Of a stretch of DNA of 64,000 bases, positions 20,345 to 64,000 are shown piece after piece. The first letter of the stretch is position 1, and each line of letters starts with the position of its first letter. A program made the translations under genes and the position numbers. The notes beneath the pieces were generated by a model, which saw nothing but the letters and a program-made list of their open reading frames with translations, had not been told where the DNA came from and made no database searches. Location of the stretch: NCBI GenBank assembly GCA_000092065.1, contig CP000594.1; one strand, given 5' to 3'. The DNA comes from Ostreococcus lucimarinus. Lineage: Eukaryota.

Positions 20345-21545
20345 CTGCGTTCGAAAATAAGAAGCGAAAAAGTGAAAATGTCAGTCTTCGTCCGCTCGCT
20401 CGTTCATCGTCTCAGAGAGTATGGTCACAAAATATCCACATTGGGTATTCGGTAAAGTTTTTGGGTTAAGGTTTTCATCTTCCTTGACGACGGCGCGATT
20501 GAAGTCGAAGAAAAACGAACGTCGAGAACGACGACGACGACGACGGATGTAGCAGGGGTTCTAGAGGCCGTTAGTCATGGACAGACACGAAGCCCGCTTT
20601 ACCCAAGCGTCACTCTACGGGCGTCTTCTGACGCGTCCGCGAATCTTTGAATCGCGGCGCGCACGTTCGAGATAAATCTCGCACCCAACATCGATCGAAA
20701 AGTAAAATGAATCCATTCAGCGGCGTGTCAGTGTTTCGTGAATCTTTTCACCGCGCCGAAACGCTCTAAAGGTGTCCTAAGATATATTGACGAAGTCATC
20801 ACCCACACCGCCGAAACGGCGAGAAAAACCAAACAAACAAACCAACGATCGCGTCAGGAATCAAAAATGATTTCGTTTCAAAGGAAGCCACTGAACACGG
20901 AGTCCTCAATTGAACTATGCCTTGATTCGAGCATCACCCGCGTCGTCGTCCGTCGTCTTCGTCGTCTTCGTCGTCGCTCGACGAGAGAAAAATCCACCCG
21001 CCGCTCGCGCGCGTTTCCAAGCCTCAGCTTAACGAGATTCACAAGTTTGATCGTCACCGAAATCAGATGGTACGGACAAGTGTGTCTCATCATCGGCTTC
21101 GCGCGCGCGACGGGCGGTCGCGCGTTTTCGTTTATCCGGCTAGCGTTCCGGCGTCGCGGGACCGGCCCGCGCGCCTCGCTCACGGTTCGCCGCGTCTCGC
21201 GCGTCGCTCGCGCTCTCGCGCCCGTCCCGAGAGACGCGCGCTCGATCGCGTGCGTCATCGCTCGACGGTGGTTTATCTCGGCGCGACCGAGCGCTGCGCG
21301 CGTCATGAGCGGGACGCGGCAGTGACTCTAGAGTGGATCGGCCTCTCGCGTTCTCGCGCGTCGCGTCGTCGTCGTCGTCGTCGTCGTCCTCGTCGCGTCG
21401 CGTCGCGTCGTCGCGCACCTCGTCGCGCGTCTCTCGCGCGCGCGTCTCGCGTTCGCGCGCGCTCGCGTCGCGCGGTGCGGTCGGGTCCGATTCGCCGCCG
21501 CCGCCGCACACCGCGACGCCGCGTCGACGCGCCGCGACGACGCGC

Positions 21546-31980: not shown

Positions 31981-32270
31981 CCCGCGCGCGCGATCTGCTT
32001 TTTCGTCCACGCGGCGTCCACTCGCGAACGCGCGGATACCGTTCGCTCTCTCAGCGCCCTCCACGTCCGATCGGTTCGGAAGTGACGCGCGCGCGCAGAA
32101 TAGTTTCGCGTCACAACGCAATTATTCATTCCCGTGTTGATTTTATTCTATTCCAGGGGGTATGGGTATAGAGTTTACAGTGCCTTCGTACGAGATATTT
32201 CCCAACACCCTTTAGTACCAAAACCTAATTGCGTATCTTCCCTCACTTTCCGACGTCACGCGCGCACGCG

Positions 32271-35200: not shown

Positions 35201-38200
35201 TGTCGGTGATGAAGGAAGTGAACTGCGCGGTTACCTCTGGTTGGATAGCGTTTCTGTGACACAGGAACGCTACTCTCCTCAACGAGTCGAGACGCCCTCT
35301 GCACAGCTCGGAGGTATGCAAGAAGGCGTTCACGCAATCACAGATATTGAATATTCGGTCATCAGCCGAAGCGATGGCTCTAAGTGCAAATCGCTGTCGG
35401 ACTGTGATATCATCGTGAGCCTGCGTCAGGTGAAGAGATGCATTGATGCGCAGTCGCGAGGCGATTTCAATATTTCGCCGATGGTGATGTCACAGACGAG
35501 TCCAAACCCGCAACCCGCGACGGTCTCGTGTGGTCGTCACTATGCAGCGAACTGCTCGACTTGTCCGTGGAAGGTGTCCGCGGAAGGTGTCCGTGGAAGG
35601 TGGATGGGCTGGAAATATTGCAATGGTGCGTGCGAATGGAGATGGCACGGGCGTATCAATGCAGGTGGCACGTGCGTGTCAAAGCCAGCTCCAACTCCTC
35701 CGGCAATAACAGTCACGGATCGTACTTCTTCAACACGTGGAACCGTCACTGCACAGATCACAGGGGGGACGATGACGCAATTTTCCACCTCTGCCAATTC
35801 ATCTGAAGTGCAGGACGCATTACGTCATGTCCTCGGAGCGCACGACGGAGGCTTCGTGGTGAGTCCAAGCATGGATTTGTTTGATGCGTGCGGTGTGAGC
35901 GCTCATCGCATGCGCGTTGCGCATGCGAGCGATCTCGAATCGATCCAAGCGCGGTACAAAGAAGTCGTCAATGGTGTGCCCCTGGGAATGCTACCGAAAT
36001 CTTCCCGAGGCCGCACTGCGGAAAATGACGCAGGTCTCCTTAATATAACTGTGAATGTCTCAGGCGGCCTCGCTGAGATAGTCGCGACAGACGAGTCGAG
36101 CGATTTCATCGGTATGGTGCCCCTGGACACGAGAACAGATCTCGATGTGCGCGCCTTGATTCGCGGTGGCGACGCCGTGTTGGCGACGGCTGTTGTGACG
36201 GATGGCGACACAGTCGTACCATGTTCTGTCTCACCTGACCGTATGTCTGCGACTGGCTTCAAACAAGTTCCGAACGGGCAGGCATTCGTTGGCGATGCTT
36301 CTTGCCACATCATTGTGCCACACGAGGAAGTTGCATCTGACGCGACCGTGCACGCTCCGACGGAGTTGAATCAGGATGGTTTTCCCTCACTCGGTGAGTC
36401 CGTGAGTCAATCGAGTCCGACAGACCAGAAACGTCGACGGGACGTCGAAACTATCCGTCGGCGCAGCATGTCAAACTCGCTAAAATTTCCTGGCCATGAT
36501 ACCTGGGCAAAACGAGATCTATCGATGAGTAGATCCGATCTTGGACGATTAACAGTCACAGTGGTTGGTTTTGGTGCGCGTGTGCACAACGGCGCCGCGC
36601 ACCGTAGAGCTGCGAATCACGCGCGGAAACTGTTGAAAACGGAACTCGTCGCGAAGGATGCAGGTCAGGGGAGTCTCAACAATACGAAAAGCAAGTATGA
36701 ATTTCCGGCGGGCGCGGGTCGATTCAGTGATCCATCGACGTGGGGTCCTCGGGGAGTGCCGGACCAAAACTCGACGGATATGCTCTTTATTCCTGCCGGT
36801 TTCAATCTTACTCTGGATGTCGCCGATACGTACTTCCGCGTGTGGGTGATTGAGGGGCACCTAAATTTCCAACGGGGCATGAACATCACGATGCAAGCAG
36901 AAATGATCGTCATCAACGGCGACGACGCACACTTTAGCATTGGGAGTGAAACACGTCCCTTTGAAGATCAGGCGAATATCATCATGCACGGTCACTGGCG
37001 ATCCCTCGGCTTGCCCAAATATGGGGTGAAGTGCATCTCACTGACGAGCGGACGATTAACATTCTATGGTCAGCACGTCACGCCTTGGATGGAACTGGCC
37101 ACTACGGCTTCAGCTAACGCAAACGTTATTTCCGTCAGAAGCAAGGAAGGCAAGACTCCAGATCTCGCCGGATGGAAACCGGGTGCGAGTATTGTGGTGA
37201 CGTCAACCTCTTACGGGGACAGGAGATGTCGGCAAAACCGTACAGACGACTGTCAACCCGAGGAGCGCGTTATTGAATCTGTCACTCCTAGAGGCAACTT
37301 TGCGGACATAACTCTCGATCGACCGTTGAAGTATGAACATTTGGGTGAATCCGTGAATGTGGCGGGAAGCCCCCGCGGGGCTACGATTGAGCGTCGTGCT
37401 GAAGTAATGCTTCTCACGAGAAATATCAACGTGCGCGGCACGACTGAACACAATGGGTATAAGCTCGTCGGCTTTGGCGCGCACACTATGATGATGTCTG
37501 GTCAAATGGTGTTGAAAAATGTTGAATTCGGCCCAAACGTCGGACAGGCCTTCCAACTGGGTCGGTATGCCATCCACTACCACACGCCCAATGAAAAGAT
37601 GTTCAAATATGGTTTGACAGCCTCAAATGACCCGAGGATGCAGGGCGCAGACCAGCGCTTGAGTCGTGTGGAGGGAGTCTCGGTCCACCAATCAAACAAC
37701 CGTGCGATCGCGGTGCATGGTTGTTATCGACTGAACATCATTAACAACGTCGCGTACAACATCTTGGGACATGGGATGTTCGTTGAAGATGGTGTGGAAA
37801 TGTGGAACCTCTTCAAGGACAACGTTGTTTCTCTAGTGCATCGCTCTTTCTCTCTTTTGAACACTGATCAAACACCTGCAGCGTTTTGGATATCGAACGC
37901 TAACAATTTCTTCATCGGTAATCGAGTGTCATCGAGTAATCATCATGGATATTGGTTTGACCCACCAGGAGGACCTACCGGACCGTCGTCGCGAACGCTC
38001 ACGGGGCCTTTGGAAATCCAAAAATTAAGCACTCGGAAGGTACCGCTCGGCCAGTTTGAAAATAACAGAGCCCACTCGAATGGCCACTCCGGACTTTGGA
38101 TTGATCAAATAAACACGGTCTTGCAGCAAGGCGGCAGGCTCAGAATGTACATGGTCGGTACCCACGTATGGAACAATGGAATCAACGGTTTCGGAATGAT

Positions 38201-41200
38201 TACCGGCGTTGGGCATCTACAGATTGTGAATACGTTTGCCATGGGCAACGGGATTGACATCATGTATATCAAGTCGACTGGTGCGACGTGGGCGATGCCG
38301 ACGAATGGTTGGTCCGGTAACTTGGTGTACAACGCCACCCTTCGCGGTGACCCGAAACGCAATACCCAGGCAATCGGCTGTCCGCACGGCGGATGGGTAA
38401 CATTTAACGATATCCTCATTAGTGGCTATCAAAGTAGGTTGCCCCCAATACACCACTGCGCTGTGTGTCCGGGTTTCAAAGGCGGCATGGAAGTTCGTTT
38501 CATGAATATGAAATTCGTCGACAGTGATACAAGGCGGCTCCGCGGTGGTTCAACATCTCGACCGCGCGTATTCTGGAACGGGTACAACTCCAACCTTTTG
38601 CTCGACGTGGATGGGACCCTGAGTGGATCGCCAGGTCCACGATGGGCGCATTCAGTCAAGGGCGCCAGTGATGATCCCAGGAACCGGCCGACGGGTCATT
38701 TTCCGCCAGAACACTGCACCCTCAATGATCACATCGGAGGTGTTGTTTGCGACGCCAACACTGTGTCGTTGCGAGAGGTGCAGTGGCGCCGTATCAAGCC
38801 CATGACCCTTATACCCATGGCGATGCAGACAGCACCTGATCAAAATGCAGGGCAAGTGAACTTTTATCATTACGACCATATCGAGCGACGTTTCAATTGG
38901 CGTACGACATTGGTTATGGTTAAAAGTCCGAACGCGAAGCCATACATCCATAACTTTACGTTTAAGTTTAAAACATGGCAAATTGATGACCCGGACGCTT
39001 GGTACATGGAGGTCCGTGAGCTTCAGCCCAATGAATGGGCTATAATGCGATTCCCCACACTCCGCAATCCGTGGCGTTGGAACTTGAATTCAAGAATACC
39101 GACGGTCACATTGAATAACTACAATCAAAGTGATTATAGTTTCAATGAGAGCAAGGCCATCACCACCACGAGCAACGAATGGCTGAGTTGGAAAAATCAC
39201 AAGTTCGGCGACCACACATACCTACCCGTTGTGGAGACAAGGGATGTTAATGTAAAGCCAGATCCAGGGCTGCTCGATATCATGATATCTGGCAAGCGCG
39301 AACAAGGATGGACACAATCGTACGCCCTCGGTGCCAACTATGATGGCGCGCGTGAAGATATGCCCGTCTGCACCACTTCATGCGGAAGCTCGGCAAAGTC
39401 AACATGTGGCATGAAACGCTACAACTGCAGACCGGGCGACAAGAAACGATGTTTGCCGATGGAAAAGCCTGCAAACTGCTTCGACAATCGACCTATACCC
39501 GAGGTAGATCCCGAGCCTAAAACTTTTTCCTGGTGCGACTCAAACGAAGTTTGGTCTCCGCCGGCATTCGGGGATGACGTCATGATCAAGGCTGGTTGGA
39601 CGGTCATCTTAGATGAAACCTGTCTGGTGACCAACATAACTAGACACGTGGATTTATATGGGTCCCTGTTGCTTCGTGATCCAGGCGCTGGTAAAACCAT
39701 CAAGTTCCGAGCGCAGACCATCCACGTCGCGGCTGGGATTGGATACCTCGAAGCTGGTGACCAGGATGATCCGATATCGAATGGCGACGTTCGTATCGAG
39801 CTTTATGGGAACAGATTTTCTAACGCTCGAATGGGCTACGGTATGGAGACAAAGTACATCGCCGTTCTCGGACACCTCAGCCTCGTCGGAAAGGCGAGCG
39901 TGGAGCAAACGTGGTCGACGCTTAGAAGCGATGCGCCCGCGGGAAGCAGTACAATTGAAACGACAGCCTGTGGCGGTTGGAATACTGGCGACACGCTCAT
40001 GATTGGTGGCGCTATGCACAATTGGACCGGGATCAAGCATGCTTGGTTTTTGAGCGCGGAGCGCTGTGATATTTCCTCCATAGCAGTTGCGAGCGAAGGT
40101 TGCGTCATACGGTGTACTTCCAGCTTCAACTACACGCACTCAGGCCCGGCCCAAAAGCACGAGGTCAGTTTTGGTGGAATGCCAGTGACTCTCATGCATA
40201 GGCGCTCTCCAGGTGGGCGCGTGCAGGTAGTTGGCATGGAAGACAAAAACAAGGCACTGGCAGAGCAGCACTATGGTGCTGTTATTACTATCCTGAAACC
40301 GAAAAAGAAAGGCTATGACGCAAAATTGGCTAAGAGATTCAAGATAGAACTCAAGACGCCCGAGCGCATGCAAGCGGCAACTGAAAGCATGAAACATGAT
40401 CCCCCGCCTGAATGCCACCGCAGACAAGGTTCGGCTGTGATCGTCAATGTCAACTTTGCGCATTGCGGTCAGCGGCACTCTAGTCGCGCGTGTGTTTCTT
40501 TTGCCGCCGGTATTGGCGCTGAGTATCGAGCTACGTTCGCAGAAACGACATCGATGGCACTCGTTGCGAACAACACATTTGCGGACGCCTACAATTTTGC
40601 CGTGAGCGCAGCAGGAGATGGAATTATTATAGAGAATAACGCCATCGCACAAACCTATCACGGTGGATTCGAGGTCTCTGGTGCGAACAACACAATGTCT
40701 AATAACGCAGCTGTTCGATTATTCGACGATGTTAGTGATTACTTTCACGACATTGGGTCGGTTGGTTTCAAGTTGTCGGGATCAGGGAAATGGTATACTA
40801 ACGTCGTCGCCTCCGTGCAGTACACTGGGTTTAAAATTCCTGGATATCCGTGCGAAATGATGACTCCAGACGTGGAGGATGAGGGTTTAGACGTTCGCGC
40901 TGTGACCACCGTTCCCGCCGAACCTACAATGCGTGACCTTCGCGCGTATGGTGGCATGGTAGGCGTGAATCTGCGGGGCGGGCGTACTCGGATGGTCACA
41001 CGTGAACCGGTGGAGGCCTACGCGCCGCTCGAGTGTCGCCAATGGAGCGACTTCGAGATTCGTTCAATGGTTTGGTACGGCGTAACCACGTTTGGTCAGG
41101 GAAAAACGTCTATTGTGTTGAAAAACTTTAATATTTGGGACACCGGACTTGGTTTCGCGCTGTGGATGGTCAACGGTGGCTCAGCCGCAGGTTCGAGCAG

Positions 41201-42095
41201 CGAGCGAGGGCATTTCGCAGAAATCAGTGACACGACGATAATCGGTTCTGCAAGTCGATGTAGAAACGACGGCATTGGGTTTCCCGCGTTTTACTTAACG
41301 GCAGAACCGTACCGGCCGGATCAAGGAGTGAAAACGCCATCGCGCTTTGGTGGAACGACGCTAAGAAACATAAGGTTTCGCGATTTCGGCGCATGTGAAA
41401 AGAAAGGCGTTCGTCAAGTTCGTCAAAAGAATTACGCATTGGTGAACGCCATGAACCGTGGGCGATACGCGTGGGTTTACTACGACAACGCGAACCCCGT
41501 GCGATCTTCTGGCTTGAGCTTTAAGGGTGTACCATTCGAAAACAGGTTACTCATGATCCATCCAAGCTGGGGTCGAATAGGCAATGGGAAATGGGGCTGT
41601 GCCCAAATGTACTGCGACGGACATCGCAACACGTTTGTGATGGATGAGGACGGTTCGCTGCTCGGTGATAACGCCGCATTCGGGACCATCTTGCCCGAAA
41701 ACGAGATTGGTTGGTTCAAGAAACTGGCCTATATCGATCCGCTCAGCCGTGACATTCTTGAAGATTTGGTTCCATTCACACACCAGTGGCTGCCCAACGG
41801 TACCAAACTGACGCCCATGCGAGGGAAGCTCTACGACGAGCCAGGCCATCTCAAAATGGGCTGTCGAAAGGAGGCTTCATGGCAGGCGTGGCTCTGTCCC
41901 GAACACAGGCACAGGCAAATAATCCACGAAAGTTTGGACGGCGATCACACGAAGAGGCGCATCTCCCCAACTTCTGTTCTCACAGAGCTACCATCTCAGA
42001 GCAAGCGTTTCATGTCTCTGTACACTGGGCCTGCGAAATACGGAGGAAACTCCTCGACCGAGGGCAATAACATCCAAGCGCTCGATCGAGGCTAG
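32271..42095 (+). CDS. Giant PKHD1/fibrocystin-TMEM2/CEMIP-like cell-surface protein, about 3274 aa, single exon. N-terminal signal anchor, IPT/TIG domains, two G8 domains and two blocks of PbH1 parallel-beta-helix repeats.
   Basis: IPT/TIG-like segments (~32895-33330 and 33420-33600). G8 domain 1 at ~36700-37080 (W-G-P-RGVP...PFEDQANIIMHG...YGVKCISLTSGRLTFYG) and G8 domain 2 at ~39520-39900 (FSWCDSNEVWSPPAFGDDVMIKAGWTVILDE...). PbH1-like repeats at ~37440-38350 and ~40500-41300 (NNVAYNILGHGMFVEDG..., NNTFADAYNFAVSAAGDGIIIENNAIAQTYHGGFEVSGANNTMSNNAAV). First ATG at 32271. The listed start at 32229 is TTG. Confidence 0.75.
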   Translation: MTSATPKRRRARRFLYAFGGPTLLFNLMRVFAMSGLVATITMSTAAGAAHGGGASMDEGPAQMHYMPDRFRSLAGGGWLTISSRDVHKSLMPMPGMRGGGEGANESAVSGSAMKDEVKIDLAHGDPDGERSCDLVHYKSSSNELVCSPRAVDCCLDGLTAQELASVSDGCPSVRPELNVEVNGQRLTWGSAGRNGRDTLTDESLKVSHGQTPTIVAVEPAEVRPGELITVYGRTCFGDVWKKDEDDGSSLRDDPDALRDLFSVEASAREDPRQEIGLEKSLYKVLIGDLPCEVRDPLTNRYYRSERGDGPYTAHRQTECGPVNGWFQCRVPQDIDSGLHLLHYETYTRGNAVILSEALRWNASDASKGYVLSVVDDKSEDEDPPRVYNITQLSKDESKQRLLVEGASLDAPNIVVELDGERCGGKKVVSRSGIEVECSGSAGASSQYHYGPPAWLREDWVFKDKNNKFVGGKAWSNALHVLKQRGERYNPLADEVMDALSSALATNGIVRGYKIEKVQQYLTSPSVGSPYVEATSGMKAAHAGLIRHRRIRNAVFERVSGVITAKANGRMRVAIANAAGNNMVLRVRHVSDNLNVFKPWLLVSKFCGTRYSRQNIYRYGFSQWFSVRGNEKYYMEFLMNLDPRYLHNFGGFDVKMEFSYDAGNPAGSIGQLTHTTTPHVPKRAHGGDYVVRFSGASKTAIRFAHNATSSRSNFEWKLFSGGKTIEFNTKNWLHAREHVRKVRDALRWANCTALPEDSKMWDADSTHSSHPFDVENRWLMVRDTQTFKEPTTDWNFIWQRRMGGFRGASIDWSTSYCSTHSQKFDLSSLPPGRVITPSSHFDVPASSRATTNKFLNFAYKVTPGTRATLLLRLKYRSGNRDISTTCAVLLTHEQATGNVKNFDHPACVDLRSVFKDDGEWHFISFDWRTALAGGEYAPSYLGEAMFPHKVQVQLDGIGVGAQRFLGKCPNKQRLAEMYVGDEGSELRGYLWLDSVSVTQERYSPQRVETPSAQLGGMQEGVHAITDIEYSVISRSDGSKCKSLSDCDIIVSLRQVKRCIDAQSRGDFNISPMVMSQTSPNPQPATVSCGRHYAANCSTCPWKVSAEGVRGRWMGWKYCNGACEWRWHGRINAGGTCVSKPAPTPPAITVTDRTSSTRGTVTAQITGGTMTQFSTSANSSEVQDALRHVLGAHDGGFVVSPSMDLFDACGVSAHRMRVAHASDLESIQARYKEVVNGVPLGMLPKSSRGRTAENDAGLLNITVNVSGGLAEIVATDESSDFIGMVPLDTRTDLDVRALIRGGDAVLATAVVTDGDTVVPCSVSPDRMSATGFKQVPNGQAFVGDASCHIIVPHEEVASDATVHAPTELNQDGFPSLGESVSQSSPTDQKRRRDVETIRRRSMSNSLKFPGHDTWAKRDLSMSRSDLGRLTVTVVGFGARVHNGAAHRRAANHARKLLKTELVAKDAGQGSLNNTKSKYEFPAGAGRFSDPSTWGPRGVPDQNSTDMLFIPAGFNLTLDVADTYFRVWVIEGHLNFQRGMNITMQAEMIVINGDDAHFSIGSETRPFEDQANIIMHGHWRSLGLPKYGVKCISLTSGRLTFYGQHVTPWMELATTASANANVISVRSKEGKTPDLAGWKPGASIVVTSTSYGDRRCRQNRTDDCQPEERVIESVTPRGNFADITLDRPLKYEHLGESVNVAGSPRGATIERRAEVMLLTRNINVRGTTEHNGYKLVGFGAHTMMMSGQMVLKNVEFGPNVGQAFQLGRYAIHYHTPNEKMFKYGLTASNDPRMQGADQRLSRVEGVSVHQSNNRAIAVHGCYRLNIINNVAYNILGHGMFVEDGVEMWNLFKDNVVSLVHRSFSLLNTDQTPAAFWISNANNFFIGNRVSSSNHHGYWFDPPGGPTGPSSRTLTGPLEIQKLSTRKVPLGQFENNRAHSNGHSGLWIDQINTVLQQGGRLRMYMVGTHVWNNGINGFGMITGVGHLQIVNTFAMGNGIDIMYIKSTGATWAMPTNGWSGNLVYNATLRGDPKRNTQAIGCPHGGWVTFNDILISGYQSRLPPIHHCAVCPGFKGGMEVRFMNMKFVDSDTRRLRGGSTSRPRVFWNGYNSNLLLDVDGTLSGSPGPRWAHSVKGASDDPRNRPTGHFPPEHCTLNDHIGGVVCDANTVSLREVQWRRIKPMTLIPMAMQTAPDQNAGQVNFYHYDHIERRFNWRTTLVMVKSPNAKPYIHNFTFKFKTWQIDDPDAWYMEVRELQPNEWAIMRFPTLRNPWRWNLNSRIPTVTLNNYNQSDYSFNESKAITTTSNEWLSWKNHKFGDHTYLPVVETRDVNVKPDPGLLDIMISGKREQGWTQSYALGANYDGAREDMPVCTTSCGSSAKSTCGMKRYNCRPGDKKRCLPMEKPANCFDNRPIPEVDPEPKTFSWCDSNEVWSPPAFGDDVMIKAGWTVILDETCLVTNITRHVDLYGSLLLRDPGAGKTIKFRAQTIHVAAGIGYLEAGDQDDPISNGDVRIELYGNRFSNARMGYGMETKYIAVLGHLSLVGKASVEQTWSTLRSDAPAGSSTIETTACGGWNTGDTLMIGGAMHNWTGIKHAWFLSAERCDISSIAVASEGCVIRCTSSFNYTHSGPAQKHEVSFGGMPVTLMHRRSPGGRVQVVGMEDKNKALAEQHYGAVITILKPKKKGYDAKLAKRFKIELKTPERMQAATESMKHDPPPECHRRQGSAVIVNVNFAHCGQRHSSRACVSFAAGIGAEYRATFAETTSMALVANNTFADAYNFAVSAAGDGIIIENNAIAQTYHGGFEVSGANNTMSNNAAVRLFDDVSDYFHDIGSVGFKLSGSGKWYTNVVASVQYTGFKIPGYPCEMMTPDVEDEGLDVRAVTTVPAEPTMRDLRAYGGMVGVNLRGGRTRMVTREPVEAYAPLECRQWSDFEIRSMVWYGVTTFGQGKTSIVLKNFNIWDTGLGFALWMVNGGSAAGSSSERGHFAEISDTTIIGSASRCRNDGIGFPAFYLTAEPYRPDQGVKTPSRFGGTTLRNIRFRDFGACEKKGVRQVRQKNYALVNAMNRGRYAWVYYDNANPVRSSGLSFKGVPFENRLLMIHPSWGRIGNGKWGCAQMYCDGHRNTFVMDEDGSLLGDNAAFGTILPENEIGWFKKLAYIDPLSRDILEDLVPFTHQWLPNGTKLTPMRGKLYDEPGHLKMGCRKEASWQAWLCPEHRHRQIIHESLDGDHTKRRISPTSVLTELPSQSKRFMSLYTGPAKYGGNSSTEGNNIQALDRG

Positions 42096-46608: not shown

Positions 46609-47959
46609 ATGGCCCTCTCTCTCGCGCAGGTCGCGCCCGCGGCGCAGGTGCGTCGCGTCTCGCACCGTCGCGCGCGTCGCGCGCGTCTCTCGGCGTCGCG
46701 AACGCGCGCGCGTCGTCGCGAACGGCGGCATCGCTCGGCATCGGATAGGATGGCCATCGGCGCGTCGTCGCGGGTCGACGCGCGACCGGGACGCGACGAC
46801 GCGCGACGTCGACGGAGGGCGAGAGAAAAATCGACGACCGCGGACGCGCGGGTGACTGACGAGAGGTTTCGCGGCGCAGTTTTCTTCGCGTAAGCGCGTC
46901 TGCGGCGCGCCGGCGGCGGCGTCCCGGACGCGCGTCGTCGTCCCGCGGGCTCGAGCGGTCGCGGCGCGCGCGAGCGGAGAGAAGAAGTCGGTGTTGATCG
47001 TGAACACGAATGGTGGCGGACACGCGAACATCGGGTTCTGGCTGGCGAAGACGCTGGCGGGGGCTGGGCACGACGTGACGATGAACGTCGTCGGCGCCGA
47101 GGACGATAAGAAGATGGCCAAGACTCCGTTCTCGTTGTTCGATGAGATTCGAGGGATGGGTGTGAAGACGGTGTGGGCGAACCCCGATGAAGTGGCGTCC
47201 AAGCATGCCGGGGCGAAGTTCGACGTGGTCGTCGATAACAACGGTAAGGACATGGACACCGTTGGTCCGGTGGCGGATTTCGCCGTCGCCGCGGGGGCGT
47301 CGCAGTTCTTGTTCGTCTCGAGCGCGGGTATCTACAAGCCCACGCCGTGCCCGCCGCACGTCGAGGGCGATGCCGTGAAGGAGACGAGCGGCCACGCCGT
47401 CGTCGAGGCGCACTTGAAGACGTTGCCGTTGAAGATGAGCTCTTTCCGCCCGCAATACTTGACGGGATACGGATCGAACAAGGACTGCGAGGAGTGGTTC
47501 TTCGATCGCGCCGTGCGCGGCCGACCGATCTTGGTCCCGGGCTCGGGTGATCAGCTCTCGTCGGTGACGCACGCCGAAGATTTGGCCACCATGATCGCCG
47601 CCGCCGTCGGCAACGACGCCGCCGCTGGGGAAATCTTCAACTGCGTGACGACGAAAGCCGTCACGCTGAACGGCATGGCGGAACTTTGCGCCAAGGCTGC
47701 GGGCGTCGAACCGAACGTGATCAACTACGACCCGAAGGATGTCCCGGATGTCGAAGTTAAGAAGGCGTTCCCGTTCCGCCCGATCCACTTCTACAGCTCC
47801 AGCGCCAAGGCGCAAGCCGTGCTCGGCTGGTCGCCCAAGCACCCGGATTTGGCCGCCGAGCTCAAGGAACGCTTCGCGTACTACAAGTCCATCGGACGCG
47901 ATAAGAAGGAGATGTCGTTCGAAACCGACGACAAAATTCTCGCCGCGATCGGCAAGTAA
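46609..47959 (+). CDS. CSP41: CSP41-type chloroplast stem-loop-binding protein (NAD-dependent epimerase/dehydratase fold). Two exons: 46609-46647 and 46880-47959, with a 232-nt GC-rich intron at 46648-46879.
   Basis: The mature part (KKSVLIVNTNGGGHANIGFWLAKTLAGAGHDV...) has no in-frame ATG. The listed start at 46991 is GTG. A transit-peptide-like ATG exon (MALSLAQVAPAAQ) lies upstream in another frame. Donor CAG|GTGCGT at 46648. Branch-like ACTGAC 22 nt before the acceptor GCGCAG| at 46879. Splicing restores a continuous ~50-aa R/A/S-rich transit peptide. Confidence 0.6.
46648..46879 (+). other. Predicted spliceosomal intron of the CSP41 gene (232 nt, GTGCGT...CTGAC...CAG).
   Basis: See the CSP41 CDS entry. 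The frame change from 1 to 2 is exactly compensated. Confidence 0.5.
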
Positions 47960-56171: not shown

Positions 56172-56977
56172 TCGTCGCGGACGCCGCGCGCTTCGACACA
56201 TGGTCAAATCACACATTAAATACGTCGCACACACACCTAAAAAAACATAAACTTCAATCTCAGACCCCCGACGCGATCGCGCGACGCGTGTTACAGGTTT
56301 TTCCCGATCCCCCTCGATCGCGCGCCGACGTCACGCGATCGCGTCGCCGCGCGGTCGATCGATCGCCGATCGCCGTCGTCGAACCTCGCCGCGTCGATCG
56401 ATGATCACGCGCGGACGATGCGGTGAGGTTCGACGCCCGCGCGGGCGCGTCGATCGCGAATATTCTCGAGACGTCGGGCCGCCGCGCGCACTTTACTTTA
56501 CGTCGCGTGGTCGAACGACACACAGCAGGTGCGCGAGCGATGCGAGCGCGCGTGACCGAGACGCGCGCGCGCGGGAAATATTCCGCCGCGCGTTCGCGCG
56601 CGCGGAGGCGCGGCGCGGCGCGGGATCGGGGCGAACGGACGCGCGATGGGACGCGCGCGCGATGATGATCCGTCCGCGGCGGCGGGTTATCTTGACGCGT
56701 GGCGTCGCGCGCGACGCGAATATGTCGGGGCTCGCGCGGTAATACCGCGCGGGAAATCGCGTGCGTCGATCCTGCGCGTCCGTGGGGGATGTCGCGGCGC
56801 GATCGCGCGGTGGGATGGGAAGATGTTGAAGATCTTGGATTTTTGGGACGAGGCGCGGGTGACGGCGCGCGGCGGCGCGGACGTCGAGGCGAAACGAACG
56901 AACCGGAAGACTGACGACGGCGAACGCGCTGAAAACGAGCAGTAAACCGCACATCAACACACTCCACAGACATAAAT

Positions 56978-59749: not shown

Positions 59750-61018
59750 ATGCGCGACGCGCGGCGCCGCGCGCGCGCGCCGCGCGCGCGAATCGTCGCG
59801 GCGCTCGCGCTCGCGCTCGTCGCGGCGCGCGCGCGCGCGGGACGCGCGCGCGAGGCGACGGGACGCGCGAACGATGGCGACGACGTCGCGGCGCTGCGCG
59901 ACGCGCTGCCGAGCGACGGCGCGACGCTGAGCGAACTGTTCAGGTGGTCGATCGAGGCGGGACACCCGCGCGCGTCGAGCGACGCCGACGATCGGGCGCG
60001 CGGCGACGCGGGTCGGGCGGAGGGTTGGCGCGCGAGGGCGCGCGCGGCGCTCGCGCGAGCGACGGGACGACGCGACGACGGCGCGAGCGCGGTCGACGCG
60101 ATCGACGACGACGAGGGCGCGGAAGCGGAAGCGGGACGGTCGAAGACGGTGGATTCGATCGAGTCGAGGAAGAGGGAGGTGCGGGAGGCGCTGGACGCGA
60201 TGGCGGCGGCGCCGAGTCCGCACGCGCTCGCGCGAGAGTGCGGCGAAGTGGTGAGGGACGCGCGTAAGAATGAAACCAAGGCGCGAAGGGTGCGCGCGCT
60301 GGAGATTTTGTACGATTTGGTGGCGCCGATCGAGTTGGCGAACGATTTGGATAAGCTCGGGGTGGCGGAGGCGCTGATCGGGGCGCTGAGGGACGAGGAC
60401 GAGGACGTGGCGAGCGCGGCGGCGAGCGCGCTCGCGGCGGCGGCGTCGAATAACGTCGTCGTGCAGGGGATCATTCACGAGAGACGAGGGTTCGATGCGC
60501 TTTTAGAGCTCGTGTCGTCGCCCGCGACGCCCGCGGAGGTGCGTCATAAGTCGTTGTGGGTGCTCGGGATGTGCGCGCGGACGCACGAGGCGTCGCGCGC
60601 CGACTTTTTCGCCGCGGGCGGCGCCGGCGTGTTGGCTGATATTTTGTCTCCGAAAACGCCGGTCAAGACGCGCACGCGCGCGATGGTCTTATTCGGCGAC
60701 TTAGTTCTCATCGACGGCGTCGCGGACGCGATGTTTGCCGACGTAAAAGTCGCGAAATCCTTACTCGAGGACGTCGTCGCGAGCGCGCTCGACGCCGACG
60801 CCTCGCTCGACGCGCGCGAGAAAGCGATCGGCGCGCTTCTCGCCGCGCGCGAGCGCGGCCCTGAGATCGTGCGACATACGCTCGACGGATTCAAGCGCGA
60901 TCTCTCGACGCTCGCCGACGCGTTCGACGCCGCGGCAAAGGCGGAGGACGACGACTCCGCCGCCGACATCAGTCGTCTCGCGCGCGCGTTGAGCGTCTCG
61001 CCAAGGGTTGAATTGTAG
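59750..61018 (+). CDS. Fes1/HspBP1/Sil1-family armadillo-repeat Hsp70 nucleotide-exchange factor. Possibly ER-luminal and Sil1-like, given the signal-peptide-like N-terminus.
   Basis: N-terminal LSELFRWSIEAG resembles the Fes1 N-terminal WSI motif. ARM-like repeats (LEILYDLVAPIELANDLDKLG, ALIGALRDEDEDVASAAASALAAAASNN, ALLELVSSPATPAEVRHKSLWVLGMCA). Hydrophobic N-terminus IVAALALALVAARARA. ATG at 59750. Confidence 0.5.
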   Translation: MRDARRRARAPRARIVAALALALVAARARAGRAREATGRANDGDDVAALRDALPSDGATLSELFRWSIEAGHPRASSDADDRARGDAGRAEGWRARARAALARATGRRDDGASAVDAIDDDEGAEAEAGRSKTVDSIESRKREVREALDAMAAAPSPHALARECGEVVRDARKNETKARRVRALEILYDLVAPIELANDLDKLGVAEALIGALRDEDEDVASAAASALAAAASNNVVVQGIIHERRGFDALLELVSSPATPAEVRHKSLWVLGMCARTHEASRADFFAAGGAGVLADILSPKTPVKTRTRAMVLFGDLVLIDGVADAMFADVKVAKSLLEDVVASALDADASLDAREKAIGALLAARERGPEIVRHTLDGFKRDLSTLADAFDAAAKAEDDDSAADISRLARALSVSPRVEL

Positions 61019-61164
61019 CGCGCGCGCGTTGAAATAGCATCCTCGTTCGTTGGTCATGTGGACTTCTTCATCATCACATTTCTACTAGTGTTAGATGGCG
61101 CCTCGCTCGCGTCGTCGATCTCGAAAGACCGCCTCCGCTCGCGCGCGCTCGCGCCTCGCCCCGC

Positions 61165-61917
61165 TCAGATGCGGTCGCGCGGCCCGACGACGGCCGGTTG
61201 CTGCGGGCCGACCGTGATCGGAAGCTTGGCGTCCTTCGCCCCCTTCACGCCGTACCCGACGGTCAACAAACCCGCGGAAACGGCCAAGAGCGAGTACACG
61301 GCCTCGCGTCGGCCCAAGCCTTGCGCCGCGTATTCGAAAAACGCCGCCTGTTGATCCGGGTATCGGCTCGACGCGTCGACGCCGTAGACGTCCCACGACC
61401 CCGTCGTCGCCTCGACGTCGGACAGATCGAAGTACACCGACTCATCGCCGTACTTCGCGTTCGTCTTCATCGCGCTGCATCGTTCGCAAACCACCGCGCG
61501 CGCCGTCAGTCCCTCGTCCCGCCGTCTCGCCCTCGCGCCCCGCTCGCTATCCGTCCCGATCGCGCCCCTCGCGCGCGTCTCCGCCCCTTTTCCGAACCCT
61601 CGTCGCCGCTCGCGCCGCGTCCCGCTCGCGTCGCGCGCGCGCGTCCTGGAGCGCGTCTCGCGCCCCTCGCACGCCCATCGTTCGCTCGCGTCGCGCGTCG
61701 TCGCGCGTCGCGTCGTCGTCCCGCGTCGCTCGAGATACGATCGCGATTCGCCCCTCGCGCGCCGCGCGTCGTTCGCGCGCGATCGCGCGTCGCGTCGCGT
61801 CACGCGCGGTCGATCGCGACGTCGCGGCACGCACCGTTCGCGTCGCGCGCGCGTCGAGCGCGGCGCGCGCACGGCGACGCCGGTGGCGAACGAGGTGGTC
61901 TTCGCGGTGGCGAACAT
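61165..61917 (-). CDS. PSAH: Photosystem I reaction centre subunit VI (PsaH) precursor. Two exons: 61917-61835 and 61474-61165, with a 360-nt GC-rich intron at 61475-61834.
   Basis: Exon 2 encodes KYGDESVYFDLSDVEATTGSWDVYGVDASSRYPDQQAAFFEYAAQG...LLTVGYGV...LPITVGPQQPAVVGPRD, which matches the plant PsaH mature protein ([32 protein letters not shown]...LPIKRGPQEPPKLGPRG). Exon 1 (ATG at 61917) encodes transit peptide MFATAKTTSFATGVAVRAPRSTRARRE. Donor GTGCGT. Branch-like ACTGAC 33 nt upstream of the acceptor TGCAG|. Confidence 0.6.
   Translation of the reverse strand: MFATAKTTSFATGVAVRAPRSTRARRERCVPRRRDRPRVTRRDARSRANDARRARGESRSYLERRGTTTRRATTRDASERWACEGRETRSRTRARDASGTRRERRRGFGKGAETRARGAIGTDSERGARARRRDEGLTARAVVCERCSAMKTNAKYGDESVYFDLSDVEATTGSWDVYGVDASSRYPDQQAAFFEYAAQGLGRREAVYSLLAVSAGLLTVGYGVKGAKDAKLPITVGPQQPAVVGPRDRI
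61475..61834 (-). other. Predicted spliceosomal intron of PsaH (360 nt, GTGCGT...CTGAC...CAG), rich in CGCGACG-type low-complexity sequence.
   Basis: Without splicing, the transit peptide and the mature PsaH are separated by ~120 codons of Arg-rich nonsense. Phase-2 exon junctions are compatible. Confidence 0.45.
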
Positions 61918-62165
61918 GGCGCGTCGGGGTGTGGCGACCGGGGATTCGTTTCTCCGTATTCGACGTCCATCGAACGCCATCATAGGGACGTCGATCGCGG
62001 TTTATCGCGATCCACGTGGATTCGGCGCGATCGCGTGTGGAATCGGGGGGACGCGCGATGGTATTATACGTCATCGAGGGGTATATAATGCGTCGAAGTT
62101 TTACTATATAGAGGAGCGCGATCGGTCGGACGGTCGGTCGGACGCGGTCGGTCGGACGGCGCGCG

Positions 62166-64000
62166 CTACGCGTCGTCGTCGTCGTCGTCGTCGGCGGCGG
62201 GGCGTCGGCCGGCGTGCGCGGCGTTGATCTCGCGAGCCTCGCGGCGGAGGGACTTGACGACGCGGCGGTCGGCGCGGGCGGCGCGGGCGTCGGAGAGCGC
62301 GCGCGCGGAGGCGCGCGACGGACGCTGCCAGGCGCTGCTTCGGCGCGCGGGCGCGCGGGACGGGGCGTGGGAGTGGCCGTGGGCGTGGGCGTGGACGCGA
62401 GACGCGTCGGTGGACGCGGCGTGGGAGTGGCCGTGGGCGCGCTGGGCGCGTTTTTGGGCCTTGGCTTTGGCGGCGTCGGCGGAGGCGGCGGTTTCGGCGA
62501 CGGCGAGGGCGCGGTCGGCCCAGGCGTAGGCGCTTTGCATCGCGGCCTGCGCGCCTTTGGTGGATTTGAGTTCGGTTTTGAACTCCTTTCGCGTCGACAC
62601 CGGAACGAGGGCGCCGGCGTGATCTTTAGTCGCGCCGGGCGGCGCGACGACGAAGTCGTTCGCCGAACGAACGTCGACGAAGACGTCGGAAGAACGCGCG
62701 TCGACGTCGGCCGCGGACGCCGCGTTCGCCCTCGTCGCGGCTTTGTTAATTTCGTCGACGCGAAGCGCGTTCACGTCGTCCAGCATGCGGCGTCGCGCGC
62801 CTTCGAGATCTGTAATCATGCGCGTCGGGTACGTCGATCCCAACTCGACGCCCGCGGCGTCGAGCTGCTTCGCCGACGCTTCCCACGGGCGGTGTCGCAG
62901 GTGCCCTTTCGGCAGCGCCGCGAGCTCTGGAATCCATCGAGCGATGCTCTCGCCTTCGGGGTCGTGCGCTCGAGAGGATCCATCTGGGGTCAACGAACCC
63001 GCGAAGACGTCCCACTGATCGAGTCCGCTCTTTCCCGCGTTTTGCCACATCATGGAATTGATCGCCAAGTCCGCGTCCACGAGAGTGTCGAGGAACCAAT
63101 CTGCGCCGTGCGTCCAATGAACGCCGCAGTAATCGACGAGAAACGTGGCCGCAATCATGCGTTCACTCTGATGCATCCATCCGGTGGCCCAAAGCCGGCG
63201 CATGCCCGCGTCCACGGTGGGGAAGCCCGTCGTTCCAGTTTGCCATCGATGAAGCGCAACGGCGGCTTCGTCGCCCTCCAACCAAGCCTTGCGATTCTCG
63301 TAGTGCCCACGCACGGACTTGGACGGTAACTCGGGCCAGTTGTGCAGTTGCCAGTACGCAAACTCTCGGCGATAGAGACGGTGCCAAAACACGCGAGAGA
63401 GCTTTTTGCCCTCCACCCCGTCGCTGCCCATCTTTTTCGTCGCCAATTCGTGGTAAATCTGCCGCGGCGATATCTGACCATGGCGTAAATACGGTGAAAG
63501 CGTGCTCACCGCGGCCGGAGCGACGATATCCGCTCTTCCGTGATCGTCCTCAAACTTCTCCAACCCCACCGAAGCGAAGTGCTCCCAAGTAGAGGCGGCG
63601 CCCGACTCCGACATCGTCCACTCCGCGCGAATCCCAGCCGCCCAGTCCAAGCGTTTATCTACGTCTGATACTATCCCTAATTCTTCTAACGACGCCGCGA
63701 ATCCGTGCTCGGGGCCTAAATCCACCACTCGCGCGCTCGCCGGCGCCGCGCGCGGCGCCCCCACTTTCCCTCCGAGCTTCTCCGCGGCGTGCACGAACGG
63801 CATGAGCGTGCCGAAAAAGTACTTTTCCCTCCTCAGATCGATCTGAATCTTCTCTGGCTCAAACAACAAGTACCCCGGCAAGCGCACGATCTCGCACGCG
63901 TCCCGCACGCTCGCCGCCGTCTCTTCGTCGTCCGCGTCCGCCGTCGGTTCGTACCGCCTCGACGCGAACGCGCGCGTCGCTCCCACTCCCCCGCACGCCG
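62166..64000 (-). CDS. CRY: Plant-type cryptochrome/photolyase, partial (the N-terminal ~150 aa lie beyond the window end). Has a C-terminal His-rich, poly-Asp extension.
   Basis: FAD-binding domain motifs LSPYLRHGQISPRQIY, RVFWHRLYRREFAYW, W..GTTGFPTVDAGMRRLWATGWMHQSERMIAATFLV, LVDADLAINSMMWQNAG, WEASAKQLDAAGVELGSTYP align with plant CRY/class-I CPD photolyase. The ORF is open to nt 64000. Confidence 0.85.
   Translation of the reverse strand, partial: ACGGVGATRAFASRRYEPTADADDEETAASVRDACEIVRLPGYLLFEPEKIQIDLRREKYFFGTLMPFVHAAEKLGGKVGAPRAAPASARVVDLGPEHGFAASLEELGIVSDVDKRLDWAAGIRAEWTMSESGAASTWEHFASVGLEKFEDDHGRADIVAPAAVSTLSPYLRHGQISPRQIYHELATKKMGSDGVEGKKLSRVFWHRLYRREFAYWQLHNWPELPSKSVRGHYENRKAWLEGDEAAVALHRWQTGTTGFPTVDAGMRRLWATGWMHQSERMIAATFLVDYCGVHWTHGADWFLDTLVDADLAINSMMWQNAGKSGLDQWDVFAGSLTPDGSSRAHDPEGESIARWIPELAALPKGHLRHRPWEASAKQLDAAGVELGSTYPTRMITDLEGARRRMLDDVNALRVDEINKAATRANAASAADVDARSSDVFVDVRSANDFVVAPPGATKDHAGALVPVSTRKEFKTELKSTKGAQAAMQSAYAWADRALAVAETAASADAAKAKAQKRAQRAHGHSHAASTDASRVHAHAHGHSHAPSRAPARRSSAWQRPSRASARALSDARAARADRRVVKSLRREAREINAAHAGRRPAADDDDDDDA

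What the first reader, a model, noticed from the sequence alone, without database searches (positions are those of the whole stretch)
61165..61917. PsaH gene split by a 360-nt low-complexity GC-rich intron inside the transit peptide
Mature PsaH is unmistakable in exon 2. The transit peptide ATG exon is separated from it by 360 nt of (CGCGACG)n-like sequence, bounded by GTGCGT and CAG, with ACTGAC 33 nt upstream of the acceptor. Read as a single ORF it would insert ~120 Arg-rich residues. Such repetitive GC-rich introns resemble the introner-type elements reported in Micromonas.
Basis: inference. Interest (0 to 1): 0.5.

Follow-up and report, generated by a model that had tools for sequence, protein, structure and literature searches.

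The report
Ordinary ancient intron in PsaH gene
The 360-base GC-rich segment is a genuine but ordinary and already annotated intron in the photosystem I PsaH gene of the green alga Ostreococcus lucimarinus; it sits at a position shared across green algae and is not a mobile "introner" element.

Summary
On the minus strand, the PsaH coding sequence (61917 to 61165) is split by a 360-nt intron (61834-61475) in the transit-peptide region. The spliced 130-aa product is 100% identical to the public protein XP_001421408.1 (psaH, Ostreococcus lucimarinus CCE9901), so the intron is already in the annotation.

Its signals are exactly the published O. lucimarinus consensus: 5' site GTGCGTG and branch point GACTGACG. 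Three environmental contigs join the two exons at the predicted junction with no mismatch. Conspecific DNA contigs carry the intron with 1-nt indels, so it is not coding.

The introner idea fails:
- The best non-self match in 64 kb equals that of shuffled controls.
- A real introner, the second PsaH intron of Micromonas pusilla, shows three extra copies within 5 kb.
- The intron position (phase 2, splitting an Arg codon just before the mature N-terminus) is shared by every Mamiellales lineage sampled, Cymbomonas and probably Klebsormidium.
- Its GC and CpG richness is genome-typical.

One unexpected result: the short motif CGTATCT(C) (reverse complement AGATACG, a LUX/GARP-type site) occurs once in each of nine otherwise unalignable Ostreococcus PsaH introns and nowhere in 27 kb of flanks. 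This hints at an intronic regulatory element.

The parts
61835..61917 (-). PsaH exon 1 (coding part): ATG plus 27 codons plus 2 nt. It encodes most of the chloroplast transit peptide (MFATAKTTSFATGVAVRAPRSTRARRE + CG of an Arg codon).
   Evidence: The spliced product is identical to XP_001421408.1. The peptide aligns with the N-termini of Micromonas and O. tauri PsaH.
61475..61834 (-). Spliceosomal intron, 360 nt, phase 2, 76% GC, CpG observed/expected 1.98, purine-rich on the sense strand.
   Evidence: It is precisely absent from contigs L001, L002 and L096. It is present with 1-nt indels in conspecific DNA contigs L003-L005 and with mismatches only in L015 and L018.
61828..61834 (-). 5' splice site GTGCGTG.
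   Evidence: Identical to the atypical O. lucimarinus non-chromosome-2 consensus GTGCGTG (PMC2483917).
61504..61511 (-). Extended branch-point motif GACTGACG. The branch A is at 61506, 31 nt from the intron end.
   Evidence: Identical to the published extended branch point of O. lucimarinus introns (PMC2483917; PMC3879977). It is conserved in the Ostreococcus-like lineages A to D (window, L018, L016, L020, L026, L033, L035); L043 and L047 carry TACTGAC instead.
61475..61477 (-). 3' splice site CAG.
61165..61474 (-). PsaH exon 2: last base of the split Arg codon, 6 more transit-peptide codons, mature PsaH and the TGA stop (61165-61167).
   Evidence: Pfam PF03244 E=1.4e-47. It is 100% identical in all conspecific environmental contigs. 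GC by codon position is 0.64/0.47/0.87, typical of coding sequence, against a flat 0.71/0.76/0.81 in the intron.
61687..61794 (-). Degenerate heptad tract, (CGACGCG)n on the sense strand, inside the intron.
   Evidence: TRF reports period 7, 15.3 copies, 62% matches, score 54.
61729..61742 (-). Conserved intronic island GATCGTATCTCGAG. The core CGTATCTC is at 61732-61739; its reverse complement GAGATACG contains AGATACG.
   Evidence: CGTATCT is present once, on the sense strand, 67-156 nt from the 5' splice site in 9 of 9 Ostreococcus-lineage PsaH introns, and is absent from 27 kb of flanks. None of 1000 shuffles reached sharing by 6 of 6 lineages for 7-mers with at least 4 A/T. There are only 3 copies of CGTATCTC in the 64-kb window.

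Best explanation
This is the nuclear PsaH gene (photosystem I subunit VI) of Ostreococcus lucimarinus. It carries one canonical U2-type spliceosomal intron of the class typical of the intron-poor bulk of that genome.

Splicing joins exon 1 (transit peptide) to exon 2 and restores an Arg codon (CG|C). The result is a 130-aa precursor whose transit peptide is removed on import into the chloroplast.

The intron is ancestral. A phase-2 intron that splits an Arg codon a few codons before the mature N-terminus is present in all Mamiellales lineages sampled and in Cymbomonas, and probably in the streptophyte Klebsormidium. The other ancestral PsaH introns have been lost in Mamiellales.

Its GC-rich, CpG-rich, low-complexity sequence reflects the composition of non-coding DNA in this genome. 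It drifts quickly by substitutions and slippage. It is not a repeated mobile element.

Shown here: gene identity, boundaries, splice signals, precise absence from intron-less contigs, non-coding behaviour, absence of copies in the window, and positional conservation. Inferred: that the intron-less contigs are cDNA, and that the intron survived because 5'-proximal introns are the last to be lost and/or help expression.
For: 1. The spliced product is 100% identical over 100% of its length to XP_001421408.1/ABO99701.1, 'psaH [Ostreococcus lucimarinus CCE9901]'.
2. GTGCGTG and GACTGACG equal the published O. lucimarinus consensus. 87% of EST-confirmed non-chromosome-2 introns contain ACTGAC and 66.5% contain GACTGACG (PMC2483917).
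3. Contigs L001 (JGI Ga0182095), L002 (SRR6824979) and L096 (SRR6824983) contain the 25+25-nt exon-exon junction with 0 mismatches. The DNA contig L018 has the same upstream haplotype with a 360-nt intron.
4. The same pairing of an intron-less contig with an intron-bearing DNA contig holds in three other lineages: L019/L026, L046/L050 and L012/L011.
5. The intron does not behave as coding sequence. It is 359 nt in L003-L005 and 355 nt in L016. It is 95.6-99.7% identical among the close window-type contigs (86.6% in the divergent L018 haplotype), while exon 2 is 100% identical. It shows no codon-position GC pattern.
6. Position and phase are conserved. M. commoda has an 86-nt exon 1 and a 329-nt intron. 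M. pusilla has 86 nt and 369 nt. The intron-bearing metagenome loci with an assessable 5' end have phase-2 introns of 241-535 nt. Cymbomonas and Klebsormidium have a phase-2 intron that splits Arg.
7. CpG observed/expected is 1.58 window-wide, and at least 10 other tracts of similar composition exist in the window.
Against: - Whether the samples behind L001, L002 and L096 are RNA or DNA could not be verified. The JGI sample Ga0182095 also yields intron-containing contigs of another species (L051, L054). An intron-less genomic allele is therefore not formally excluded.
- No RNA-seq of strain CCE9901 itself was available here.
- Homology of the Klebsormidium intron position rests on phase and the split Arg codon within a length-variable transit peptide.
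- At 360 nt the intron is longer than the median O. lucimarinus intron (111 nt, mean 168; PMC2483917).
Confidence: 0.93

Rival explanations
1. The intron is (or derives from) an introner-type mobile element, as in Micromonas pusilla, recently inserted into the transit-peptide region.
For: - The sequence is low-complexity and repetitive-looking.
- There are more hits of at least 40 bits to other GC-rich tracts of the window than for shuffles (34 against a mean of 12).
- A 7-nt direct repeat GCGAACG lies at the end of exon 1 and 6 nt before the 3' splice site.
Against: - The best non-self hit is 56 bits (78% over 99 nt), which equals the shuffled controls (54.6 +/- 5.4, maximum 68.9).
- A genuine introner, the second PsaH intron of M. 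pusilla, finds 3 near-full-length copies at 83-87% identity within 5 kb by the same method, and has no hit in this window.
- The position and phase are shared by all Mamiellales lineages sampled, Cymbomonas and probably Klebsormidium.
- There are no terminal inverted repeats.
- Introner elements were reported absent from mamiellophycean genomes other than Micromonas (PMC3879977).
Confidence: 0.02
2. There is no intron. The 753-nt open frame (or the 272-aa ORF starting at 61983) is translated in full, giving PsaH with an Arg-rich insert of about 120 residues.
For: The frame is open from 61983 to 61165. Prokaryote-style gene callers produce such products on metagenome contigs (P0105, 282 aa).
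Against: - An open frame is expected by chance at this composition (27% of shuffles).
- 1-nt indels in conspecific contigs (359 nt) break the frame.
- Codon-position GC is flat.
- No homologue has such an insert; orthologues are 128-136 aa.
- Intron-less contigs exist.
Confidence: 0.01
3. Exon 1 is not used. Translation starts at the ATG at 61470 (MKTNAKYGDES...), giving a PsaH without a transit peptide, and the GC-rich tract is promoter or 5' UTR.
For: An in-frame ATG lies 4 nt into exon 2. Some gene calls start there (P0019).
Against: - A nuclear-encoded PSI subunit needs a transit peptide.
- The exon-1 peptide is conserved across lineages, including O. tauri (chain 7yca_H).
- Contigs join exon 1 to exon 2 exactly.
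- The splice signals match the consensus exactly.
Confidence: 0.02
4. Extension rather than alternative: the intron is retained because it carries a transcriptional cis-element. The conserved (T)CGTATCTC(G) motif reads AGATACG on the other strand, a LUX/GARP-type GATWCG site. Such an element could contribute to diel or clock control of PsaH in a genome with a very short promoter (248 nt to the upstream gene).
For: - The motif occurs once per intron in 9 of 9 Ostreococcus lineages whose introns are otherwise unalignable, always 67-156 nt from the 5' splice site, with 0 occurrences in 27 kb of flanks.
- None of 1000 shuffles reproduce the sharing.
- GATACG occurs 14 times inside the introns against 6 times outside, in about 8-fold less sequence.
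- The LUX consensus is GATWCG (PMC7299327, Table 1).
Against: - The shuffle test ignores shared ancestry.
- The motif is always on the sense strand, which equally fits an RNA-level role (for example a splicing enhancer) or simple descent.
- It is not found in Micromonas or Bathycoccus-like introns, which have GATATC-type motifs instead.
- No GARP factor of Ostreococcus was examined, there are no expression data, and the motif is not enriched window-wide.
Confidence: 0.2

Closest known systems
Canonical (non-chromosome-2 type) spliceosomal introns of Ostreococcus lucimarinus (Irimia & Roy 2008, PMC2483917)
   Same: It has exactly the 5' site GTGCGTG, exactly the extended branch point GACTGACG close to the 3' end, a terminal AG, and GC-rich content.
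   Different: It is longer (360 nt) than the median (111 nt) or mean (168 nt) and somewhat more GC-rich (76% against about 63% on average). It carries a short conserved internal motif.
Annotated psaH gene model of O. lucimarinus CCE9901 (XP_001421408.1 / ABO99701.1 / UniRef100_A4S781)
   Same: The spliced product from the window is identical residue for residue (130 aa).
   Different: Nothing. The intron is already implicit in the public model.
Micromonas introner elements (IE-A to IE-D; Worden 2009; Verhelst 2013, PMC3879977; Simmons 2015, PMC4540971)
   Same: Both are spliceosomal introns of a few hundred nt in a mamiellophycean gene. The short IE-C class shares the GACTGACG branch motif.
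   Different: Introner elements are multi-copy with conserved sequence, sit at novel positions and are lineage-specific. This intron is single-copy in the data available, is not similar to the IE copy in M. pusilla PsaH, and sits at an ancestral position.
BOC1 / chromosome-2 small AT-rich introns of Mamiellales
   Same: Both are introns of the same genomes.
   Different: Those are 40-65 bp, AT-rich and have weak signals (PMC3491373; PMC2483917). This one is 360 nt, GC-rich and has strong consensus signals.
First intron of PsaH in other green algae (M. commoda, M. pusilla, Cymbomonas tetramitiformis, Klebsormidium nitens)
   Same: It has the same phase (2), splits an Arg codon, and lies 5-12 codons before the conserved KYGDES start of the mature protein. 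Lengths in Micromonas are similar (329 and 369 nt).
   Different: There is no alignable sequence. Composition follows each genome. Cymbomonas and Klebsormidium keep 1-2 further introns that Mamiellales have lost.

Membership tests
PsaH (photosystem I subunit VI, Pfam PF03244) | Significant match to the family profile above the curated cut-off | tested here: met
   E=1.4e-47, 161 bits against a cut-off of 25. Best solved-structure match is O. tauri PSI chain 7yca_H, E=5.6e-63.
PsaH (photosystem I subunit VI, Pfam PF03244) | N-terminal chloroplast transit peptide ahead of the mature N-terminus | tested here: met
   Mature chains in PDB entries start at query residue 35-36. The preceding 34 residues are Ser/Thr/Ala/Arg-rich and align with those of orthologues. 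Cleavage itself was not tested.
Canonical O. lucimarinus (non-chromosome-2 type) spliceosomal intron | 5' splice site consensus GTGCGTG | tested here: met
   61834-61828 reads GTGCGTG. Consensus from PMC2483917.
Canonical O. lucimarinus (non-chromosome-2 type) spliceosomal intron | Branch point ACTGAC / extended GACTGACG near the 3' end, followed by AG | tested here: met
   GACTGACG at 61511-61504, with the branch A 31 nt from the terminal CAG.
Canonical O. lucimarinus (non-chromosome-2 type) spliceosomal intron | Removed from the mature transcript | tested here: met
   L001, L002 and L096 carry the exact exon-exon junction. Caveat: the RNA origin of these samples is inferred, not verified. 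Metatranscriptome-derived proteins P0008 and P0107 also show the ...ERAMKTN junction.
Introner elements (Micromonas-type) | Many copies with conserved sequence in other genes of the same genome | tested here: not met
   In 64 kb the best non-self hit equals shuffled controls. The positive control in M. pusilla finds 3 copies in 5 kb. The whole genome was not available, so this is a partial test.
Introner elements (Micromonas-type) | Novel, lineage-specific intron position not shared with relatives | tested here: not met
   The same phase-2, Arg-splitting position is found in all Mamiellales loci assessed, in Cymbomonas and probably in Klebsormidium.
Introner elements (Micromonas-type) | Sequence similarity to a known introner family | tested here: not met
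   The M. pusilla IE copy (L013 2602-2814) has no hit in the window. Only one IE family was tested.
Introner elements (DNA-transposon type) | Terminal inverted repeats / target-site duplication at the intron ends | tested here: not met
   Only degenerate low-complexity repeats were found. There are no terminal inverted repeats, and the 7-nt GCGAACG repeat is not at the boundary.
BOC1 (chromosome-2) introns | 40-65 bp, AT-rich, weak splice signals | tested here: not met
   360 nt, 76% GC, consensus signals.
LUX/GARP binding site (GATWCG) | Sequence match to the consensus | tested here: met
   The reverse complement of the conserved CGTATC is GATACG. Consensus from PMC7299327, Table 1.
LUX/GARP binding site (GATWCG) | Bound by a GARP factor present in the organism; effect on transcription | not testable with these tools
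   No binding or expression data were available, and the presence of a LUX-like factor in O. lucimarinus was not examined.

The most novel reading that the evidence does not exclude
The ancestral first intron of PsaH has been kept in intron-poor Ostreococcus because it houses a short conserved element, (T)CGTATCTC(G), whose reverse complement is AGATACG (a LUX/GARP-type site). The element would act as an intronic transcriptional control site, or alternatively as an RNA-level splicing signal, for this highly expressed and diel-regulated photosynthesis gene. The rest of the intron and the promoter would be a mutational or recombinational hot spot.
Probability: 0.2. Interest if true: 0.35.

Novelty: already known. 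Interest (0 to 1): 0.12.

Why it matters
As a finding it mostly matters as a negative. A GC-rich, repetitive-looking intron in a prasinophyte gene is not evidence of introner activity, and Ostreococcus remains without such elements in the data examined. The case is a clean example of how an intron-poor genome keeps only the 5'-most ancestral intron of a highly expressed gene, with very strict splice signals. The only lead worth following is the conserved intronic AGATACG-type motif. If functional, it would be one of the few defined cis-regulatory elements in Ostreococcus and would be easy to test with existing luciferase reporter tools.

Tried and rejected
- BLAST of the intron against the window found only low-complexity partial hits, indistinguishable from dinucleotide shuffles.
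- An Rfam scan of 61000-62200 at E<=1 found only a chance miRNA hit (20.6 bits against a gathering score of 83), so no intron-encoded snoRNA or other known RNA.
- The RNA fold of the intron has MFE -182 kcal/mol and z=+0.57 against shuffles, so there is no special structure.
- A repeat search at the intron ends found no terminal inverted repeats or target-site duplication.
- I considered that L001 and L002 might be intron-less genomic alleles, that is, an intron presence/absence polymorphism. I judged this less likely because L018 shows the same haplotype with the intron. In addition, intron-less contigs exist for four different lineages whose DNA contigs all carry the intron. Literature searches for the sample identifiers found nothing.
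- I considered that the window lies in the low-GC outlier region of chromosome 2, because of GC of about 0.5 in 1-42 kb. The low GC coincides with two giant genes, and the intron is of the non-chromosome-2 type. This was not pursued.
- An exact look-up of P0001 in the contig index returned nothing.
- A paper on algal transcription factors did not include Ostreococcus in its table, so the presence of a GARP factor remains unchecked.

Full report
**Observation**

The gene lies on the minus strand. Reading the reverse complement of 61100-62160 gives the following layout:
- ATG at 61917-61915.
- Exon 1: 83 coding nt ending ...CGCGAACG.
- Intron: GTGCGTG at 61834-61828, then 360 nt ending ...GCGAACGATGCAG at 61475.
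- Exon 2: 61474 to the TGA stop at 61167-61165.

Joining the two exons gives a 393-nt coding sequence and a 130-aa product. The exon-2 part matches Pfam PSI_PsaH with E=1.4e-47.

The intron is 76% GC, with 98 CpG (observed/expected 1.98) and 64% purine on the sense strand. TRF finds a degenerate 7-nt periodic tract only at 61687-61794 (15 copies, 62% matches). Read through, the intron would add 120 codons, a stretch holding 39 Arg. One small correction: the branch A of ACTGAC is 31 nt, not 33, from the 3' end.

**Identity and prior knowledge**

The spliced product is 100% identical, over its full length, to 'psaH, PSI-H, subunit VI, photosystem I polypeptide [Ostreococcus lucimarinus CCE9901]' (XP_001421408.1 / ABO99701.1 / UniRef100_A4S781), which sits on a 708,927-bp record. 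The window therefore comes from O. lucimarinus, and this intron is already in the public gene model.

Irimia & Roy (2008, PMC2483917) described the introns of this genome. Outside the intron-rich half of chromosome 2, EST-confirmed introns have the atypical 5' consensus GTGCGTG. Of these, 87% contain ACTGAC and 66.5% contain the extended GACTGACG. The PsaH intron has exactly GTGCGTG and exactly GACTGACG (61511-61504), so it is a textbook member of that class. At 360 nt it is longer than the median (111 nt) and mean (168 nt) given there, but within the spread.

**Evidence that it is spliced and not coding**

Three environmental contigs carry exon 1 joined to exon 2. They are L001 (JGI Ga0182095), L002 (Logan SRR6824979) and L096 (SRR6824983). 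The 25+25-nt junction is found with zero mismatches.

These contigs have a divergent 5' haplotype (88% identity upstream, 100% downstream). The metagenome contig L018 has that same haplotype, including the same RraA-like upstream gene, together with a 360-nt intron. The simplest reading is that L001, L002 and L096 are cDNA of L018-like strains.

The same pairing recurs in three other lineages, each with an exact junction:

| Intron-less contig | Intron-bearing DNA contig |
|---|---|
| L019 | L026 |
| L046 | L050 |
| L012 | L011 (the M. commoda genome) |

I could not verify the library types. If these contigs were DNA, the alternative would be intron-less alleles, which would still define the same boundaries.

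Conspecific DNA contigs (L003-L008, L015) are 100% identical to the window in exon 2 and in the 146-nt 3' intergenic spacer. They differ in the intron (95.6-99.7% identity), and in L003-L005 1-nt indels make it 359 nt long; it is 355 nt in L016. Those lengths would shift the frame if the segment were translated.

GC by codon position is 0.64/0.47/0.87 in exon 2 but flat (0.71/0.76/0.81) in the intron. The open frame is not informative: 27% of dinucleotide shuffles are also open, and all three antisense frames are open too.

Mature PsaH chains in solved PSI structures begin at query residue 35-36.

**The introner test**

- BLAST of the intron against the 64-kb window gives only partial, 68-85% identical matches to other GC-rich tracts. 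The best is 56 bits, against 54.6 +/- 5.4 (maximum 68.9) for 40 dinucleotide shuffles.
- As a positive control, M. pusilla CCMP1545 PsaH (L013) has a second, 213-nt intron at a different position. The same BLAST finds three more copies of it at 83-87% identity over 180-214 nt within that 5-kb locus. That element has no hit in the O. lucimarinus window.
- There are no terminal inverted repeats or boundary duplications.
- The literature reports introner elements as absent from mamiellophycean genomes other than Micromonas (PMC3879977).
- The whole O. lucimarinus genome could not be searched here, so the copy-number test is partial.

**Age of the intron**

| Lineage | Exon 1 (nt) | Phase | Intron (nt) |
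|---|---|---|---|
| O. lucimarinus (window) | 83 | 2 | 360 |
| M. commoda | 86 | 2 | 329 |
| M. pusilla | 86 | 2 | 369 |
| Cymbomonas tetramitiformis | 104 | 2 | 497 |
| Klebsormidium nitens | 116 | 2 | 1233 |

In M. commoda and M. pusilla the intron sits at the same alignment position as in O. lucimarinus: the split Arg codon is followed by six codons before KYGDES.

Of 80 metagenome loci encoding PsaH relatives, every intron-bearing locus whose 5' end could be assessed has a phase-2 intron of 241-535 nt that splits an Arg codon 19-31 nt before the K of KYGDES. This covers at least ten distinct Ostreococcus-, Bathycoccus- and Micromonas-like lineages.

In Cymbomonas the intron splits Arg 5 codons before KYGDES, and in the streptophyte Klebsormidium 12 codons before it. 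These two species keep one or two further introns that Mamiellales lack.

The intron is therefore ancestral, certainly for Mamiellales plus Cymbomonas and probably for green plants. It is the only PsaH intron retained in these intron-poor genomes; Bathycoccus, for example, has about 0.15 introns per gene outside the outlier region (PMC3491373). Its sequence is unalignable between lineages and its composition tracks each genome, from 38% to 77% GC.

**Composition in context**

CpG is over-represented throughout the window (observed/expected 1.58; 1.72 in the last 18 kb). At least ten other tracts of 300 nt or more have GC >= 0.74 and >= 22 CpG per 100 nt. One of them is another candidate canonical intron, at 46648-46879 (GTGCGTC ... 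GACTGACG ... AG, 73% GC; unverified).

The 'low-complexity GC-rich' look is thus a genome property, not a signature of an element. No Rfam family matches, and the intron RNA folds no better than shuffles (z=+0.57).

**An unexpected detail**

Among nine Ostreococcus-type introns that otherwise share only splice signals and CG-repeats, the A/T-containing heptamer CGTATCT (mostly TCGTATCTCG) occurs exactly once in each. It is always on the sense strand, 67-156 nt (usually about 95 nt) from the 5' splice site. It does not occur in 27 kb of flanking sequence on either strand. In the window it is at 61739-61732.

None of 1000 dinucleotide shuffles gave a 7-mer with at least 4 A/T that was shared by six of six independent lineages. 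The shuffles ignore common descent, however.

Its reverse complement, (G)AGATACG, fits the LUX/PCL1 consensus GATWCG (PMC7299327, Table 1). Some lineages have two or three tandem CGTATC copies. This may be an intronic cis-regulatory site or an RNA-level signal. It is a lead, not a result, and I rate it at about 0.2.

**Verdict**

The gene and intron call are right. The introner interpretation is not supported. The feature is a known, annotated, canonical and ancient intron, so interest is low. The conserved intronic motif and the locally elevated diversity are the only items that might repay follow-up.

Noticed in passing
window 61729-61742 (-); also L016, L018, L020, L026, L033, L035, L043, L047 introns: A conserved island, (GA)TCGTATCTCG(AG), occurs once per PsaH intron in nine Ostreococcus-like lineages and is absent from 27 kb of flanks. 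Its reverse complement AGATACG fits the LUX/GARP GATWCG site. A second, weaker shared motif, GGATAG/GGATAA, lies nearer the 3' end (window 61552-61547).
   Followed up: partly
window 61475-62165 compared with L001:1-560, L002:1-340, L018:1-780: A second environmental haplotype has an RraA-like gene (Pfam PF03737, E=3.7e-13) upstream of PsaH instead of the photolyase gene. It is 85-88% identical through the promoter, 96% in exon 1 and 87% in the intron. From about the branch point onward it becomes 100% identical (exon 2, the 3' spacer and the Fes1-like gene). This looks like a sharp recombination or structural-variant boundary inside the intron.
   Followed up: partly
window 61475-61834 and 61918-62165: Among otherwise 99.8-100% identical conspecific contigs, the intron (0.3-4.4% divergence, with indels in most) and especially the 248-nt upstream region (3-15% divergence, many indels) are hypervariable. 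The 146-nt 3' intergenic spacer is invariant. The cause is unknown; candidates are slippage in CpG-rich low complexity, transcription-associated mutation and haplotype mixing.
   Followed up: partly
window 62117-62165: A (CCGA)n-type microsatellite lies directly upstream of PsaH and next to the photolyase stop codon. It varies in copy number between environmental contigs and marks the point where the two upstream haplotypes diverge completely.
   Followed up: no
L013 2602-2814 (M. pusilla CCMP1545 PsaH second intron); copies at L013 752-947, 3860-4038, 4402-4608: This is a genuine introner element in M. pusilla PsaH, at a position not shared with other species. Three further copies (83-87% identity) lie in neighbouring genes within 5 kb. 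The annotated model uses a GC donor and drops about 3 residues (AAQ) there, so the model is probably slightly wrong.
   Followed up: partly
window 61840-61872 (-), within exon 1: Two metatranscriptome-derived proteins (P0008 from ERR1712216, P0107 from ERR1712205) lack 11 residues (VRAPRSTRARR, 33 nt) of the transit peptide but keep the ...ERAMKTN junction. The missing stretch starts with GTGCGCG but does not end in AG. It is either a strain deletion or an assembly artefact in low-complexity sequence. Both proteins also look chimeric at the C-terminus.
   Followed up: no
window 61918-61983 (-): An in-frame upstream ATGATG would extend the ORF by 22 codons (MMAFDGRRIRRNESPVATPRRA), and prokaryote-style callers use it (P0002, P0003; 152 aa). 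The nucleotide block ATGATGGCGTTCGATGGACGT is conserved across most haplotypes, but the peptide varies and L005 has a 1-nt deletion just upstream. It is probably 5' UTR. The O. tauri sequence deposited for chain 7yca_H also carries a 36-aa extension.
   Followed up: no
window 37-11901 (+) and 32229-42095 (+): There are two giant open reading frames. One is at least 3954 aa (Vps62 and VPS13_C domains, so VPS13-like, and probably running off the window start). The other is 3288 aa (G8 and CEMIP beta-helix domains). Both have markedly lower GC (0.49-0.53) and fewer CpG than the surrounding genes (0.66).
   Followed up: partly
window 46648-46879 (+), 56761-56939 (+), 20345-20664 (-): These are other candidate canonical introns, each with a GTGCG[TC] donor, a (G)ACTGAC branch motif and an AG acceptor. 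The first is 232 nt, 73% GC, with 27 CpG per 100 nt, very like the PsaH intron in composition. None was verified against gene models.
   Followed up: no
window 59750-61018 (+), 62166-63986 (-); L003, L011, L013: Local gene order is conserved between Ostreococcus and Micromonas: PRPP synthetase, then (photolyase/cryptochrome), then PsaH, then a convergent Fes1-like gene. The photolyase gene lies between PRPP synthetase and PsaH only in the Ostreococcus CCE9901-type haplotype.
   Followed up: no
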